Source of the DNA: a virus
Virus record (IMG/VR): IMGVR_UViG_3300041955_000884
Location: 1 to 64,000 of that record
Reading direction: 5' to 3' (one strand)
Length of the DNA: 64,000 nt
Shown here: piece by piece, positions 21,655 through 28,250 of the stretch
Layout: each line of letters begins with the position of its first letter
How positions within the stretch are numbered: the stretch's first letter is position 1
Translations under genes and position numbers: made by a program
Notes under the pieces: model-generated
The model's database searches: none
What the model was told of the DNA's origin: nothing
Seen by the model: the letters and a program-made list of their open reading frames with translations, nothing else

Positions 21655-22041
21655 TCAGGTCTCCAGAAGGATGGCACCGCTGCCATCCTCGAGTTCGATG
21701 TCGTCAATGCCATCCTCGAGCAGGATGAAGTCGCCTGCCGGGGCTGGCGGGGCTGGCGGGTTGAGGTAGAAGCAGTTGTCGCCGCCGCTGGTGGCGCCAT
21801 TGGAGAAGCCGTCCAGGAATGGTTCCCACTGGCCGCAGCCGCCTTGGCCCAGCGGGACACGAACCCCGCCGAGGCCCATGTTGTCGTCACTGCGCCAGAT
21901 GATGGTCGACTCGGATGCGGTGAGCGGGCTGGGGTCCGCAGTCCAAGCGTTCCAACTGGCCAGCCGGCCGGAAGCTCCCTGGCCCGTATCGACGAACCGG
22001 GGCGCGTTGGCAGCCGGGGGAAATGCAAGGAAGCTAGCCAC
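21655..22041 (-). CDS. tail-region protein with LEDG repeats
   Basis: FILLEDGIDDIELEDGSGAILLET C-terminus; GTG start. Confidence 0.6.
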   Translation of the reverse strand: MASFLAFPPAANAPRFVDTGQGASGRLASWNAWTADPSPLTASESTIIWRSDDNMGLGGVRVPLGQGGCGQWEPFLDGFSNGATSGGDNCFYLNPPAPPAPAGDFILLEDGIDDIELEDGSGAILLET

Positions 22042-22633
22042 ATATCAGCTCCAGCGACGACTGAGCGGCCGCGTGGCGCGCGCGCGGCGCCGCCGCCCAT
22101 CGCTCGCGCTGAAGACAGCCGCATGATTTTGACAAGCCGCGCCTAGCACTGTTGACGGACAGCAGTTTTTCCGTCCCGCAAATGCACCGACACAGCCATT
22201 TCCGCTCAAGGCCGACCATCGGGCCAGCGGACAGCACAGTCCAACGGCCAAAAACGTCGCCTGGATTAGTCTTGCAGATGCGTCGGAGCGCTCCGGCATT
22301 GGTGCTCGCCTCGGCGCGACTATTGTAGCCGAACGGCTTCCTGTTCGCCTGATAGGCCGAAATCAGCGCGTCCTCGTAGCCAAGCAGGTCTTCGGGACGG
22401 CACGCCAAAACTTGGCGGAAGGCGAAGGCGCCCTCGCCATGCTTGTTCCACGCGTTTTGAAGCGACGGACTGCGAGCGCGACGGCCGCGAAGGTCACAGC
22501 GGTGGCGCTGCAGCCTGTACCGGACGTGCTTGGAGCTGCCGATATAGCGCCGGCCACTCTCGATGTGGACAATCTCGTAGACGCCAACGTCCAACGGTCT
22601 GCCGCCAGTCGCGAGGGAGGAGATGCTCACCAT
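22034..22633 (-). CDS. GIY-YIG homing endonuclease
   Basis: GVYEIVHIESGRRYIGSS...R, LQNAWNKHG, GYN, then FGRWTV...WLCRCICG...SKSCGC; TGATG-coupled to the tailspike. Confidence 0.88.
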   Translation of the reverse strand: MVSISSLATGGRPLDVGVYEIVHIESGRRYIGSSKHVRYRLQRHRCDLRGRRARSPSLQNAWNKHGEGAFAFRQVLACRPEDLLGYEDALISAYQANRKPFGYNSRAEASTNAGALRRICKTNPGDVFGRWTVLSAGPMVGLERKWLCRCICGTEKLLSVNSARRGLSKSCGCLQRERWAAAPRARHAAAQSSLELICG

Positions 22634-25600
22634 CAGTGGGTCATCACGTTCGCGGTCATGGCGCCGCTGTAGGAAATCACGACGCTCTCGTTCGGGCCGA
22701 GGCCGACAGTGAAGGGAGCAGAAGCCGACGTGGCCACGGGCAGCAGGTGCGTGCCATTGTACGTCACTGAATTGATTGAAGTCGTGGCGCTGAGGTAAAG
22801 CGTCTGCGGCGACGGTCCCGCGGTGTAAGTCCACGGCGAGGCCGAAGCGGACAGCGTCGATGAGCCAACGGGGTTGTAGCCGTTGTTGTCGAGCACGCGG
22901 ATGGCGGTGGCCGTGGCGGAAACCGAGATCGTCGAGGAACCGAAACCCCCGGCGAAGCTGTTGCCTTGGATGATGCCGCCCGTTGCCGAAGGCCCGATGG
23001 TGATGCCCGTCGTCGTCGGCGTCGCCGAGCGCAGCGTGTTGGCAGCAAGGTTGAAGTACTCCGTGCTGTCCACGTTGAGGCCGGCATCGGCCGCCGTTCC
23101 GATGCCCTGCCAGGCGTTTCCGGTCACGGTCATCGCGGTGACCCAGATACCTCCGGTATCGCTCGGCACGCTGAGGCCGGTCTGGGTGTCCTGCATCTCG
23201 TTGCCGTCGATGAGGATTTGCGCCAGGGTTCCGGTGCTGCTGCGCTGGATTTCGACGGCGGGGCCAAGGCTAACCTGCGAAATCGAATTGTCCCCGATGA
23301 GGACGCCGCCAGCCGCCTGGGAAGTCGAAGTGTACATGTAGAGGATGCCACCGGCCGCGCACTCCGTGATGGTATTGCCCACGGCCCGGAAGCCGCCAGC
23401 ACCGGCCCATCTCACGCCCACGGCGGTCGTGGATGACGTGGAACCGTAAATTTCATTGTTGGCGAGGTCCACGTCGACGGAGGAGGCAAGCTCGGCCCCG
23501 GTGGTCGAGAAGCCGACAATGAAGCAGCCGTCCATCACAAAGGCGCCGCTGTTCTGAACCAGGATGCCGGCGTTGGAGTAGACGATGGCCGTGTCGCGGA
23601 CCCGGCTGGCGACGTTGTTCGTCGAGTTCACGTTGATGGTCATGGCGTAAACGCCAGGGGACTGGGCTGCGGGCGGGTAGTAGAGCTGGAGATCCTCGGT
23701 GGTGATGGGAGCCGTGGTGTTGAAGGCAAAGCAGGTCGTGGCCGAGGACGGCGAGATGACGGACTGGCCGAGTCCGTCGCCGAAAATCTTCATCCCAGTC
23801 GTGATGCTGATTTGCGCCGTGATGCGATAGACATCCGTCGGCACGTACATCGCATTCGGCGCAGCCGCGTTGGCACATGCCTGAATTGCCACCGTGTCGT
23901 CAGTCACGCCGTTCCCGGTCGCCCCGAACCATTTCACCGAGAACGGATTTCCGCCCGTCTCTCGGTACCAGTTGCGGCTCAGGCCGTCAGCGATGATAGA
24001 CCCGCCGTTCGGCGAGGCCGTGCTGGATGGGAACGGAGCGAACATCCCCTCCCCGCCGTCCGTTGCGTTGTAGTAGCCGAGGAGCCAGAGCGGCATCGTC
24101 GCTGGCCCGGTGTAAGCGGCGAGTGCCGCAACATTGGCGATCTGGCCGACGCTATATTCCCCGAACCCGACATTGTTGAGGACGTAGACGGCGGTTGCGG
24201 TGGCCGACACGGAGACGGCCGGAGGGACGAATGAGCCGGCGAAGTTGTTCCCCTGGATATTGACGCCCACGCACGACGGGCCGATGACAATCCCGGCCGT
24301 GGTCGGCGTCGCCGAGCGCAGCGTGTTGCCGAGAATGTTAACGTATTCGGCAGTGTCAATCTCGAAGCCGTAGTCGGCTGGAGTGCCGGGACCCTGCCAG
24401 GTATTGCCGGTCACGGCCATGGCATTGACCCAGATGCCGCCGGTATCGCTCGGCACGCTCAGGCCGCCCTGGCAGTCCTGAAGCACGTTCCCGGAGATGA
24501 CGATTTGGGCTACCGTCCCGGTGCTGCTGCGGACGAGCCTGATAGCCGGGCCGCTATCCGCCGAGAAGATCTCATTGTCGGCGATAACGACGCCGCCGTT
24601 CGCCGGGGTGCCGATGTAGTTGTAGAGAATGCCGCCGGACGCCGCTTCCGTGATGGTATTGCCCACGACGCGAAGGGCGCCAGCAGCAGTCAGATTCAGC
24701 CCCGTCGCTGCCGCTCCAGCGCCGTAAAGCTCGCAGTTCGTGATATTCACGTCGATGGAGGACGAAATCACCGCGCAGGTGGTCGAGCACCCCACGATGA
24801 AGCAACCGTCCATCACGAAGGCGCCGGAGTTCTGCACCAGAATGCCGGCGTTGGCGTAGATGATGGCGGTGTCCCGAACCCGGCTGGCCACATTGTCCGA
24901 GGAGGACACATCGAACGTCATGGCATAGACGCCGGAGGACTGGGCCGCAGGCGCGTAGTAAAGCTGCAGGTCCTCGACGGTGACAGGCGCGGTCGTATTG
25001 AACGCCAGGGCGGTGGTGGCGGAGGACGGCGAGAATACGGATTCCCCGAGACCTGCACCGAAAATCTTGATCCCAGTCGTGATGCTGATTTGCTTCGAGA
25101 TGGCGTACACGTCCGACGGCACGTACATCGGGTTCGGGGCGGCTGCGTTGGCGCAGGCCTGGATGGCCGCAGTGTCATCAGTCACGCCATCGCCGACGGC
25201 ACCGAACCATTTCACGGAGAACGGATTTCCGCCGGTCTCGCGGTACCAGTTCCGCGCCAGGCCGTCGGCCAGAATGGTGCCGCCGTTCGGGGAGGCTGTG
25301 CTGGAGGGGAACGGCGCGAGCATGCCCTCCCCGCCGTCGGTCGGGTTGTAGTACCCCATCAGCCAGAGAGGCCCCGTCGCTGGCCCCGTATAGGCGCTCA
25401 GGGCGGCGACATTCGCGATCTGGCCGACGTAACCGACGCCTGATGCCGAGGGGCTAAGCGAAGCAATCTCCTCCTCCAGCGTGGTGATCTCCGTCTGGAG
25501 CTGCTGGAGGCACATCATCTGGTAGTCGAACTCGGTCTCGATGGCCGCGAAGGTCGGCCCCTGGTTCTGCAGGCTTGTGGCCTGGATGAGGGGCAGGATG

Positions 25601-26255: not shown

Positions 26256-27020
26256 ATGGCAAAGCTCCATGAGGTCCTGGCCGTCGAAAGCGGCCTCCAG
26301 GCCACGGCGAAGAAGGTCAATGAGGAGACGATTCGCACCTTCGGCAAGAAAGATGAGCACTTCATCGAGACGGTGAAGGCCATCACCCACTTCGCCGAGG
26401 AGGACAAGCATCTCGACACCACCGAGTCCAAGGCGATGGTGACGACCGTCTTCGACAAGCTGCTCTACACCGCCGGACCGAACATCAAGGCACTGGACGC
26501 CTACCTCCAAAAGGAGGCCACCAACCAGAAGGCCGTCGCCGATCTCGTCGTGGGCGAGACCACGTTGGCCACGGCGATGCCGGCCACGGTTCTCCTCGGA
26601 CTGGAGACCAAACTGGCGGAACTCCGCGCGGTCTACGATGCCATCCCGACGCTGGCGCCGGGTCCGACATGGGTCGAAGACGGCGACAGGCGCGCCGACG
26701 GAGGCGTCTACCGCTCCGAGCACCCCGACGTCACGTTCCGCACCCGCAGGACCGTGAAGCCCATCATCATGGCGCCGGCGACGAAAGAGCATCCGGCCCA
26801 GGTCCAGGCCATCCAGGAGGACGTGCCCATCGCGAAAATCGTGATGCAGCACTGGAGCGGCATGATCACCTCGGCGGAGAAGTCCGACCTGCTCGGCCGC
26901 GTTGACAGATTGCTTCGCGCCGTGAAGCGCGCCCGGCAGCGCGCCAACATGCAGGAGGTCGAGAACCGGAAGATCGGAAAGGCCTTGTTCGATTTCATCC
27001 ACGACGGTATCGTGGGATGA
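26256..27020 (+). CDS. uncharacterised alpha-helical protein (MAKLHEVLAVE type) heading the ncRNA locus
   Basis: AAAGG RBS, ATG 26256, 254 aa, strong GC3 codon bias; APATKEHPAQVQ and RAVKRARQRAN motifs. Confidence 0.9.
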   Translation: MAKLHEVLAVESGLQATAKKVNEETIRTFGKKDEHFIETVKAITHFAEEDKHLDTTESKAMVTTVFDKLLYTAGPNIKALDAYLQKEATNQKAVADLVVGETTLATAMPATVLLGLETKLAELRAVYDAIPTLAPGPTWVEDGDRRADGGVYRSEHPDVTFRTRRTVKPIIMAPATKEHPAQVQAIQEDVPIAKIVMQHWSGMITSAEKSDLLGRVDRLLRAVKRARQRANMQEVENRKIGKALFDFIHDGIVG

Positions 27021-27027
27021 CCAGTTC

Positions 27028-27099
27028 GCCGGGATAGCTTAGTGACAGAGCGTCCACCTCGTCAGTGGAAGACGGCGGTTCAACTCCGTTCTCCTGGCA
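27028..27099 (+). tRNA. degenerate tRNA-Thr(CGT)-like element
   Basis: GCCGGGA/TCCTGGC acceptor, GCTT/GAGC D-stem, TCCAC-CTCGTCA-GTGGA anticodon arm, GGCGG-TTCAACT-CCGTT T-arm; lacks D-loop GG, has C37 and one extra C. Confidence 0.7.
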
Positions 27100-27111
27100 C
27101 CCCTCTCCCAT

Positions 27112-27380
27112 CAGGGACAGCTTCAGCCTCAACCTCAGCGTGACGACGAAGTAGCCTCAGCTTTGTGCCCTGAAAACTTACTCGCGAAACACCGGAAATA
27201 GGCGCGAGACGGCTCCGATAACGCCAGACGCGGGTTCGATGCCCGCGCCCCCAACCAACTTGATGGGGGCTAGCACAGTGGCAGTGCAGGCGCTTGAAGA
27301 TGAGGCCGTAGTGTCGCTGAAAAGCGGTGTGCGAAGGGAAATGCGCTTTCCGTAAGCGCCAGACTTGAAATCTGGTTCCC
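27112..27380 (+). ncRNA. structured ncRNA with circularly permuted tRNA domain, hexamer-repeat domain and anticodon-arm mimic
   Basis: T-arm 27230-46, acceptor 3' strand plus ACCA 27247-57, acceptor 5' strand 27264-70, D-arm 27273-87, closing helices 27222-25/27289-92 and 27209-15/27302-09. Confidence 0.85.
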
Positions 27381-27386
27381 AAACCC

Positions 27387-27420
27387 GGGGGGTGCCGTAG
27401 GGATTGCGGCATCCCCTTTT
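27387..27420 (+). terminator. intrinsic terminator ending the ncRNA unit
   Basis: GGGGGTGCCGTA-GGGAT-TGCGGCATCCCC followed by TTTT. Confidence 0.85.
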
Positions 27421-27503
27421 GGTTGCTACGGGTTCTGCCCGAGCGCGCCGAACGGTCCGGCCGCCCCGTTGCACAAAGTCGCCCCAGATGCTACATTCGC
27501 GGC

Positions 27504-28250
27504 ATGGCACCGACAGTCATCAGCCGAGAGGAAGCGCGCGCGGCTGGCCTGAAGCGCTTCTTCACCGGCGAGCCATGCCCGAGGGGCCACATCGCGGAAC
27601 GCTACGTGCTGAAAGGCCGCTGCGTCGTCTGCGCGAAAGAGGCCGGAGCCGCTTGGATTGCAGCGCACCCCGAAAAGGCCTTGGAGTACTCCCGTCGGAA
27701 TGAGGCGAAGCACCGGGAGAGGCGCCGCGCGAAAAACCGTCGCGTCAAGGCCAAGTGGCGCGCGGCACACCCAAAGGAGAACAAGCGTCGGCTGAAGGAG
27801 TGGCGCGACGCGAACCTTGAGAAGTCACGACAGCACTCGCGGGACTGGGGCAACGCTAACCGCGGGAAGCGCGCGGCTACTGCAAAGCAATGGCGGCAGG
27901 ACAACCCAGAACGAGCGCTGGAGCTGGCGCACGAATGGCGCGAACGGAACCCGGAGCGCTACCGCATAGCAAAGAATGCGGCGAGCCACAGACGCCGCGT
28001 CAGGAAGCTCGCGGCGGAGGGAAACCACACCGCTGATGACATCCAAGCCCTGTGCGCGAAGCAGCACGGCAAGTGCGCAAACTGCCGTCGCGGCATTGGC
28101 CGTTGCTTCGAGGTAGACCACATCCAGCCACTGACGAAGGGCGGCTCAAATTGGCCGTCAAATCTCCAGCTTCTGTGCCCGCGCTGTAACCGCAAAAAGC
28201 ACAACAAGGACCCCATCGCCTGGGCGCGGGAGAACGGCCGTTTGCTCTGA
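27504..28250 (+). CDS. HNH endonuclease
   Basis: FFTGEPCPRGH...CVVC N-terminus, CANC...VDHIQPLTKGGSNWPSNLQLLCPRCN; own promoter TTGCAC-17-TACATT 6 nt before ATG. Confidence 0.9.
   Translation: MAPTVISREEARAAGLKRFFTGEPCPRGHIAERYVLKGRCVVCAKEAGAAWIAAHPEKALEYSRRNEAKHRERRRAKNRRVKAKWRAAHPKENKRRLKEWRDANLEKSRQHSRDWGNANRGKRAATAKQWRQDNPERALELAHEWRERNPERYRIAKNAASHRRRVRKLAAEGNHTADDIQALCAKQHGKCANCRRGIGRCFEVDHIQPLTKGGSNWPSNLQLLCPRCNRKKHNKDPIAWARENGRLL

What the first reader, a model, noticed from the sequence alone, without database searches (positions are those of the whole stretch)
27336..27380. Detached anticodon-arm mimic and possible long-range kissing interaction
Seen: GGGAA/TTCCC closes two hairpins, GCGCTT-TCCGT-AAGCGC and CCAGA-CTTGAAA-TCTGG. 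The second is a canonical 5-bp/7-nt anticodon arm (CU-UGA-AA, Ser). TTTCCG (27347-52) is complementary to CGGAAA (27193-98) in the loop of the CTCGCG/CGCGAG hairpin. Inference: the RNA carries tRNA body and anticodon as separate modules, suiting a nuclease decoy or synthetase ligand.
Basis: partly seen in the sequence, partly recalled or inferred. Interest (0 to 1): 0.75.

Follow-up and report, generated by a model that had tools for sequence, protein, structure and literature searches.

The report
Armless tRNA remnant in phage RNA
The flagged 45 bases are a real, conserved RNA fold, a cut-down tRNA that kept its anticodon arm. It forms the tail domain of a large tRNA-mimicking phage RNA that always follows one unknown protein gene (DUF7873); the proposed long-range "kissing" contact is not supported.

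Summary
C27359 is counted in both hairpins.

The element is the 3' domain of a roughly 320-nt phage ncRNA: tRNA-Thr-like unit, repeat leader, permuted CCA-bearing tRNA mimic, GNRA hairpin, this element, 3' hairpin. This RNA follows the DUF7873 gene in nearly all 47 related viral loci. The scan has already noted this RNA/DUF7873 pair on other DNA.

At the same place, 12 relatives carry a full cloverleaf that passes Rfam's tRNA threshold. The window, L004, L017, L049 and L068 lack the T arm. Eight or more relatives keep only the 7-nt-loop hairpin.

Across 25 loci the loop keeps Y32 (22), U33 (22), R37 (23) and A38 (22), while nine different triplets occur. In three near-identical phage pairs, substitutions pile up in this loop while the stems stay intact.

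The TTTCCG/CGGAAA complementarity is within chance (12% of shuffles) and is absent from relatives.

Best reading: a tRNA-derived anticodon-arm display domain of an undescribed tRNA-mimic RNP. Decoy or tether function is inferred, not shown.

The parts
26256..27020 (+). DUF7873 gene (254 aa), the conserved protein-coding partner upstream of the RNA
   Evidence: Pfam PF25283 hit, E 2.2e-72. 774 homologues. AF2 model pLDDT 82 with no clear fold match.
27028..27101 (+). tRNA-Thr(CGU)-like unit at the 5' end of the transcript
   Evidence: Rfam tRNA 48.3 bits and an ARAGORN call. A metatranscriptome contig joins 27039-27258 in one molecule.
27112..27172 (+). Leader stem CAGGG/CCCTG enclosing hexamer repeats (YCARNY units)
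   Evidence: Read directly from the sequence. The stem changes on both sides among relatives as read by eye (GGGG/CCCC in L069, TAGGGA/TCCCTA in L071).
27181..27208 (+).
   Evidence: The loop motif C-Y-G-R-A-A-M-U-A-G is conserved in sequence in L004, L017, L022 and L023.
27209..27309 (+). Permuted tRNA mimic. T arm 27230-46; acceptor 3' strand 27247-53; ACCA 27254-57; loop; acceptor 5' strand 27264-70; D arm 27273-87; closing stems CGCC/GGCG and ACGGCT/GGCCGT.
   Evidence: YrlA RF02553 match at 32.5 bits, below its gathering score of 69. 14 homologues, 13 of them with N-CCA. 12 of 16 pairs show compensatory changes. The CM hits nearly all DUF7873 loci.
27315..27326 (+). CGCT-GAAA-AGCG hairpin (GNRA tetraloop)
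   Evidence: The GAAA is conserved in A4.
27327..27334 (+). Conserved GTGTGCGA motif just 5' of the junction
   Evidence: Invariant GTGTGC in the window, L004, L017, L022 and L023.
27336..27380 (+). The finding: a T-arm-less tRNA remnant forming a three-way junction, with closing stem GGGAA 27336-40 / TTCCC 27376-80
   Evidence: MFE and centroid fold. Same topology in L004, L017, L049 and L068. Aligns with the full tRNA-like unit of L022/L023.
27343..27359 (+). D-arm-derived hairpin GCGCTT-TCCGT-AAGCGC, with no G18G19-type loop
   Evidence: Aligned to the D arm GCTC-AGTTGGTA-GAGC of L022/L023. L004, L017 and L068 keep the GCTC/GAGC stem.
27359..27375 (+). Anticodon-arm-like hairpin CCAGA-CTTGAAA-TCTGG (loop 27364-70)
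   Evidence: Stem identical to L022/L023. The loop CTTGAAA recurs in L042, L032, L044 and L061.
27381..27383 (+). AAA linker, conserved between the remnant and the 3' hairpin
27387..27421 (+). 3' hairpin with U tract (intrinsic terminator). Its loop is related to the GGCAATGC loop of relatives.
   Evidence: Terminator-like site. Compensatory changes between L004 and L017.

Best explanation
Positions 27336-27380 are the 3' domain of a composite, tRNA-mimicking phage ncRNA of about 320 nt (27028/27107 to 27421) that is genetically coupled to the DUF7873 gene. The domain descends from an ordinary-order tRNA-like unit that relatives still carry at this position. In this phage the variable region and T arm (about 22 nt) and the D-loop GG are gone. 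What remains is a short closing stem, a D-stem hairpin and a 5-bp/7-nt anticodon stem-loop.

Shown: selection keeps the helices and the anticodon-loop frame (Y32, U33, R37, A38). The middle loop positions (35-37) change quickly, even between near-identical phages.

Inferred: the domain does not decode. It has no acceptor end and no T arm. It displays an anticodon stem-loop as a protein-recognition surface within a tRNA-mimic RNP. The partner would be either DUF7873 or a host tRNA-binding factor such as an anticodon nuclease or a modification enzyme. In this way it complements the CCA-bearing permuted tRNA body upstream.

It does not form the proposed kissing contact with the 27181-27208 hairpin.
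For: Structure: the junction is the MFE and centroid fold, alone and in context. The same junction is the MFE fold in L004, L017, L049 and L068.

Homology: in A4 the window's hairpins align with the D arm and anticodon arm of L022/L023, with an identical CCAGA/TCTGG stem and a 22-nt T-arm gap. In 12 relatives the unit at this place scores 43-71 bits on Rfam tRNA. Two are annotated as tRNA-Ile(tat) and tRNA-Thr(tgt) in Rhizobium phages.

Position and enrichment: a 5-bp/7-nt hairpin with U at loop position 2 occurs 51-87 nt 3' of the mimic in 31 of 42 loci, against 6.0 expected.

Loop frame: Y32 in 22, U33 in 22, R37 in 23 and A38 in 22 of 25, with nine different triplets.

Constraint after T-arm loss: between L004 and L017, all 7 substitutions in the 42-nt module fall in its 16 unpaired bases and none in the 26 paired ones (my calculation, p about 4e-4).

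Fast loop: 4 of 12, 2 of 21 and 1 of 6 substitutions fall in the 7-nt loop in three close pairs.

Repeated reduction: the DUF7873 tree needs at least 2 origins of the T-less form, and the hairpin-only forms lie elsewhere on the tree.

Context: the permuted mimic follows DUF7873 in nearly all loci.

Expression of the 5' part: a metatranscriptome contig covers 27039-27258, flanked by adapters, with its end at the CCA.
Against: No RNA contig covers 27279-27520, so expression of this domain is not shown.

Folding z-scores of single sequences are modest, from -0.9 to -2.1.

The 25-hairpin alignment was assembled by a hairpin search, so its 100% pairing is partly circular.

Only three close T-less relatives could be fetched. 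The tool that would have fetched hundreds more was closed.

Fast-changing loop positions fit neutral drift as well as they fit adaptive retargeting.

No binding partner is identified. DUF7873 has no recognisable fold.
Confidence: 0.6

Rival explanations
1. Structural relic only. The element is a decaying pseudo-tRNA whose helices are kept merely as a stable 3' structure that protects the ncRNA or positions the terminator. Nothing reads the anticodon-like loop.
For: Loop positions 35-37 change at about the neutral rate between close relatives. The module has been trimmed in different ways in different lineages (T-less, D-less, hairpin only). No partner is known.
Against: When arms are lost, the 7-nt-loop hairpin is the part that is always kept. 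Y32, U33 and A38 stay conserved even in reduced forms, and the exact loop CTTGAAA recurs in five distant loci. A plain stabiliser would not need this.
Confidence: 0.25
2. A detached anticodon arm works together with the permuted tRNA body, and the hairpin-1 loop (TTTCCG) kisses CGGAAA in the 27181-27208 hairpin loop to fold the RNA.
For: Six Watson-Crick complementary bases are present in the window.
Against: A match this long arises in 12% of shuffles. Two of the six bases lie in a stem. At aligned positions the pairs are 3 of 6 in L004 and L017 and 1 of 6 in L022/L023. An alignment-free search finds no equivalent match to the homologous loop in L004 or L017. The upstream loop motif is conserved in sequence while hairpin-1 loops differ completely.
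Confidence: 0.05
3. A working minimal tRNA. The remnant is excised and used in decoding, like the armless mitochondrial tRNAs.
For: The anticodon-loop frame is canonical. The phage has 26 tRNAs and none for Ser.
Against: The closing stem is only 5 bp, and it is followed by AAA and the terminator, not by a discriminator and CCA. There is no T arm for RNase P or EF-Tu. ARAGORN and Rfam tRNA do not call it. Bacterial SerRS needs a long variable arm (established knowledge).
Confidence: 0.03
4. Not a functional RNA element: a chance fold in GC-rich DNA, or part of a protein-coding frame.
For: The single-sequence z-score is only about -2. Two 110-aa ORFs overlap the region on the minus strand.
Against: The fold and its position are conserved across diverged phages. 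The overlapping ORFs have no Pfam match.
Confidence: 0.02

Closest known systems
YrlA-class bacterial and phage Y RNAs bound by Ro60/Rsr (Rfam RF02553; Chen et al. 2014, PMC4201824), especially M. smegmatis YrlA
   Same: The host RNA contains a permuted tRNA mimic: T arm, loop-closed 7-bp acceptor, D arm, and no anticodon arm. Like M. smegmatis YrlA, which RNase P cuts and which then carries CCA, this one has a 7-bp acceptor with CCA. One RNA-library insert ends at that CCA.
   Different: There is no Ro60/TROVE gene in the 94%-complete phage. The score is below the Rfam threshold (32.5 against 69). The Ro60-site motif is not conserved. The partner gene is DUF7873. The RNA also carries an extra 3' domain, the finding itself, with an anticodon arm, which the YrlA description read here (Chen et al. 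2014) does not include.
Ordinary phage tRNA genes (Rfam RF00005)
   Same: The element is homologous to a tRNA-like cloverleaf in relatives. It keeps a 5-bp/7-nt anticodon arm with U33, R37 and A38.
   Different: It has no T arm, no variable region, no G18G19, only a 5-bp closing stem, and no discriminator or CCA. It is embedded in a longer RNA. No tRNA finder calls it.
T-armless or armless mitochondrial tRNAs of nematodes (established knowledge)
   Same: A reduced tRNA that lacks the T arm but keeps the D and anticodon arms.
   Different: Those keep a full acceptor stem with a free CCA end and are aminoacylated. This one has neither.
E. coli thrS mRNA operator, an anticodon-arm mimic bound by ThrRS (established knowledge, not tested here)
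   Same: A hairpin outside any tRNA that copies the anticodon stem-loop and serves as a protein ligand.
   Different: The thrS operator is a cis-regulatory mRNA leader with a fixed Thr-type loop. Here the hairpin lies in a trans ncRNA and its triplet varies between relatives.
Two-piece (permuted) tmRNA (Rfam RF04321)
   Same: A permuted tRNA-like gene with an internal CCA.
   Different: Only 14.4 bits, over the T arm and acceptor. There is no G3:U70 pair (U1-A72, G2-C71, G3-C70 here) and I found no conserved tag frame. ARAGORN calls no tmRNA.

Membership tests
tRNA (RF00005), for the element 27336-27380 | Reaches the Rfam gathering score, or is called by ARAGORN | tested here: not met
   No tRNA call here. 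The only clan match is tRNA-Sec at 21.4 bits against a cut-off of 47, E 0.095, over 27334-27418.
tRNA (RF00005), for the element 27336-27380 | T arm and variable region | tested here: not met
   TCTGG is followed directly by TTCCC. There is a 22-nt gap relative to L022/L023.
tRNA (RF00005), for the element 27336-27380 | 7-bp acceptor stem with discriminator and a free or encoded CCA | tested here: not met
   The closing stem is 5 bp and is followed by AAA and the terminator.
tRNA (RF00005), for the element 27336-27380 | 5-bp anticodon stem with a 7-nt loop, U33 and purine-37 | tested here: met
   CCAGA-CTTGAAA-TCTGG. The frame is conserved in 22-23 of 25 homologous hairpins.
tRNA (RF00005), for the element 27336-27380 | Homology to a tRNA gene | tested here: met
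   It aligns with the cloverleaf of L022/L023, which scores 53 bits on RF00005.
YrlA / Y RNA (RF02553), for the host RNA | Encoded within about 4 kb of a Ro60/TROVE gene on the same strand (Chen et al. 2014) | tested here: not met
   No PF05731 match in the 107-kb, 94%-complete phage record. The adjacent gene is DUF7873.
YrlA / Y RNA (RF02553), for the host RNA | GNCGAAN0-1G motif near the 5' end (proposed Ro60 site) | tested here: inconclusive
   GACGAAG is present at 27145, but it arises in 21% of shuffles and is absent from L004, L017, L022, L023, L069, L070 and L071.
YrlA / Y RNA (RF02553), for the host RNA | tRNA-like domain: T arm, loop-closed acceptor, D arm | tested here: met
   This is module 1 (27209-27309), not the flagged element.
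YrlA / Y RNA (RF02553), for the host RNA | Rfam gathering score | tested here: not met
   32.5 bits against 69.
DUF7873-associated composite tRNA-mimic RNA (undescribed family, noted earlier by this scan) | Lies directly 3' of a DUF7873 gene and contains the permuted CCA-bearing mimic | tested here: met
DUF7873-associated composite tRNA-mimic RNA (undescribed family, noted earlier by this scan) | Physical binding of DUF7873 to the RNA | not testable with these tools
   Only gene adjacency is available.

The most novel reading that the evidence does not exclude
The anticodon-arm domain is a retargetable decoy. Its loop evolves quickly to copy whichever host tRNA anticodon loop a tRNA-targeting defence nuclease (or a modification enzyme) attacks. 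Together with the CCA-ended permuted tRNA body and DUF7873, it forms a two-part tRNA-mimic particle that phages use in conflicts centred on tRNA.
Probability: 0.15. Interest if true: 0.85.

Novelty: new variant of a known kind. Interest (0 to 1): 0.55.

Why it matters
tRNA mimicry by non-coding RNAs is known from Y RNAs and tmRNA. Those mimic the acceptor/T/D body and lack an anticodon arm.

Here a widespread phage RNA has no Ro60 partner and is tied instead to an unstudied protein. It carries both a CCA-bearing body mimic and a separate, selectively retained anticodon stem-loop whose central bases change quickly between near-identical phages.

If the loop is read by a host factor, this would be a natural, evolvable RNA decoy in the phage-host contest over tRNAs. 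It would also give a handle on the function of DUF7873. If it is not read, it is still a clear case of a tRNA gene being whittled down into a structural RNA domain several times independently.

Tried and rejected
1. Kissing TTTCCG/CGGAAA is rejected. It is not beyond chance and is not conserved.

2. An alternative tertiary pairing, ACACCG (27189-94) with CGGTGT (27325-30), is kept 6 of 6 in L004 and L017, with two G-U pairs and one compensatory change. It is kept only 3 of 6 in L022/L023. I leave it as an untested lead.

3. The idea that the anticodon-like loop pairs with the UCA-containing hexamer repeats of the leader found no support. Own-locus complementarity is no higher than with loops permuted among loci (p 0.48-0.99).

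4. tmRNA is rejected. The match is 14-15 bits, there is no G3:U70, I found no conserved tag frame, and ARAGORN calls none.

5. The tRNA-Sec-like fold that uses the terminator as a T arm is low-scoring and conflicts with the contiguous terminator helix and with the homologues.

6. GGCGCTT (27289-95) could pair with AAGCGCC (27354-60). This is specific to the window and absent from L004 as read by eye.

7. A DNA search of the phage collection found no match. Two of the three pattern scans returned mostly tandem tRNAs or coding DNA.

8. DUF7873 fold searches gave only generic helical matches, best Z 7.6. There is no PHROG match.

9. No RtcB or CCA-adding enzyme gene is present in the phage.

11. 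No RNA contig covered 27279-27520. This is no evidence either way.

Full report
Observation. The window is the first 64 kb of a 107,197-bp viral record estimated to be 94% complete. It carries 26 tRNA genes, none of them for Ser. The flagged stretch lies in a 400-bp non-coding gap between a DUF7873 gene (26256-27020; Pfam E 2.2e-72) and an HNH endonuclease gene (27504-28250). RNAfold returns exactly the described three-way junction as both MFE and centroid. This holds for the isolated segment (-15.5 kcal/mol, z -2.06) and inside the whole 323-nt RNA (z -2.9). Two details need correcting. C27359 is shared by the two hairpins. T27347 and T27348 of the proposed kissing hexamer belong to the hairpin-1 stem.

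What surrounds it. An E-value Rfam scan matches 27209-27312 to YrlA at 32.5 bits, below its gathering score of 69. The anatomy is a permuted tRNA mimic. It runs T arm, 7-bp acceptor 3' strand, ACCA, a 6-nt loop, acceptor 5' strand, TA and D arm, and it is closed by further stems. A tRNA-Thr(CGU)-like unit lies upstream. A terminator-like hairpin with a U tract lies downstream at 27387-27421. The flagged element is therefore the last folded domain before the terminator of one long RNA.

Relatives. The neighbouring protein has 774 homologues. Pattern scans, a protein-guided scan of viral contigs and three Rhizobium phage records gave about 50 loci with the same gene. In 14 loci read by eye the permuted mimic is present, and 13 of them have N-CCA after a strongly covarying 7-bp acceptor. 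Twelve of the 16 consensus pairs show compensatory changes. A covariance model built from these sequences hits just downstream of DUF7873 in nearly all 47 viral loci. This scan had already noted the DUF7873/tRNA-mimic pairing on other genomes. I found no paper naming DUF7873.

What the flagged element is. A homology alignment with the closest phages (74-76% protein identity) puts the window's two hairpins in register with the D arm and anticodon arm of a complete cloverleaf in L022/L023. The anticodon stem CCAGA/TCTGG is identical. The window, L004 and L017 lack the 22 nt that form the variable region and T arm. In 12 relatives the unit at this position passes Rfam's tRNA threshold at 43-71 bits. 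Two of these are annotated as tRNA-Ile(tat) and tRNA-Thr(tgt) in Rhizobium phages Y1_11 and TM16. Their acceptor stems, as I read them, are mostly only 5-6 bp and are followed by AAA rather than a discriminator and CCA. Those with UGA or UAA triplets have short variable regions, unlike bacterial tRNA-Ser and tRNA-Leu (established knowledge), so even the full versions are doubtful decoders.

The window, L004, L017, L049 and L068 all fold by MFE into the same T-less junction. L030, L034, L035, L037, L042, L044, L055, L061 and L062 keep only the 7-nt-loop hairpin. On a DUF7873 tree the T-less state needs at least two origins, and the hairpin-only forms lie elsewhere on the tree. The tRNA-like unit has therefore been trimmed repeatedly, and the anticodon-arm hairpin is the part that survives.

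Is the anticodon-arm likeness more than chance? A 5-bp/7-nt hairpin with U at loop position 2 occurs within 170 nt 3' of the mimic in 31 of 42 loci, against 6.0 expected from shuffles. It sits at a consistent offset of 51-87 nt. In 25 such hairpins the loop has a pyrimidine at 32 (22), U33 (22), a purine at 37 (23) and A38 (22). Nine triplets occur: UGA 10, UGU 4, UUA, UAA, UUU and UAU 2 each, and CAU, GAA and GCU 1 each. The perfect pairing in that alignment is partly circular, because I collected the hairpins with a hairpin search.

Two tests do not share this bias. First, between L004 and L017, which are both T-less and differ at about 9% of positions, all 7 substitutions in the 42-nt module fall in its 16 unpaired bases and none in the 26 paired ones (my calculation, p about 4e-4). 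Second, in three independent near-identical pairs, substitutions concentrate in the 7-nt loop: 4 of 12 (p 3e-5), 2 of 21 and 1 of 6. They always hit position 35 and never U33, U34 or A38. So the helices and the loop frame are constrained, and the central loop bases move fast.

Kissing claim. The hexamers are complementary in the window, but 12% of shuffles of the hairpin-1 segment find a match as long somewhere upstream. At aligned positions the pairs are 3 of 6 in L004 and L017 and 1 of 6 in L022/L023. An alignment-free search finds nothing equivalent in L004 or L017. The upstream loop motif is conserved in sequence while hairpin-1 loops are unrelated. I reject the claim. A different pairing, ACACCG with CGGTGT, fares better but remains unproven. 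Pairing of the anticodon-like loop with the leader repeats is also unsupported.

Expression. Metatranscriptome runs from wetland and other samples hold parts of the locus. One RNA-library contig covers 27039-27258 with no mismatch and has Illumina adapter sequence on both sides. The insert therefore ends at or one base after the CCA at 27255-27257. This is a single observation. It fits RNase P-type processing of the mimic, as was shown for M. smegmatis YrlA. It also shows that the tRNA-Thr-like unit can remain joined to the leader. Nothing covered the flagged domain itself.

How it probably works. It is shown that the element is a conserved, tRNA-derived fold that keeps an anticodon stem-loop and cannot be a decoder. 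It is inferred that the element is a protein-recognition surface in a tRNA-mimic RNP. The partner could be DUF7873, whose model (pLDDT 82) matches no known fold. It could instead be a host factor that reads anticodon arms. The phage has no Ro60, RtcB or CCA-adding enzyme gene. The fast central loop bases fit either drift or retargeting, and I cannot tell these apart here.

Comparison and verdict. The host RNA works like a YrlA-type Y RNA but fails the membership tests: no Ro60, a sub-threshold score, and no conserved Ro60-site motif. The flagged element is homologous to tRNA but fails tRNA membership on the T arm, the acceptor and the CCA. It is a new variant within tRNA-mimic ncRNAs. The 'detached arm' becomes 'reduced second tRNA unit'. 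The kissing contact falls. The decoy function remains a hypothesis.

Noticed in passing
window 27039-27258: A metatranscriptome contig (run X19) matches this span exactly and is flanked by Illumina adapters on both sides. The cDNA insert therefore ends at the CCA of the permuted mimic and begins inside the tRNA-Thr-like unit. This hints at CCA-end processing and at the tRNA-like unit staying attached to the leader.
   Followed up: partly
window 27247-27270 and homologues: Many acceptor stems of the permuted mimic read U1-A72, G2-C71, G3-C70 with discriminator G. This is the acceptor pattern of E. coli tRNA-Gln (from memory). The discriminator varies (A, G, C, U) across the family.
   Followed up: no
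window 27118-27165; leaders of L004, L023, L069-L071, L035, L042: Hexamer repeats (CAAACT/CAGCYT type, with UCA recurring every 6 nt) lie inside a stem that changes on both sides. In L042 the repeat is GGTGTT instead.
   Followed up: partly
window 27327-27334; L004, L017, L022, L023, L016, L020: A GTGTGC(G/A)A motif is invariant 5' of the remnant. It may pair with the 27181-27208 hairpin loop (ACACCG/CGGTGT).
   Followed up: partly
3' hairpins of L004, L017, L022, L023, L025, L043: The loop of the terminal hairpin keeps GGCAATGC(C) across diverged phages. It may therefore be more than a terminator.
   Followed up: no
L022 2848-2854 versus L023 2611-2617: Two nearly identical tRNA-like units differ at 4 of 7 anticodon-loop bases (TTTAAGA against ATTGTAA). 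This would switch the nominal identity from Leu(UAA) to Thr(UGU) on the same class-I body.
   Followed up: partly
L031 2389-2667; L016 3285-3536; L008: Some loci carry two or more permuted tRNA mimics in tandem. L008 holds a run of odd tRNA-like units with GGTGAAG D regions.
   Followed up: no
window 27504-28250 and 22034-22834: An HNH endonuclease gene lies directly after the ncRNA terminator, and a GIY-YIG gene lies nearby. They are probably homing endonucleases. L004 has different DNA after its terminator.
   Followed up: no
L071 (Rhizobium phage RHph_Y65) 3035-3180: This relative has the permuted mimic but no recognisable tRNA-like or 7-nt-loop hairpin before its 3' hairpin. The second domain is therefore not universal.
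   Followed up: no
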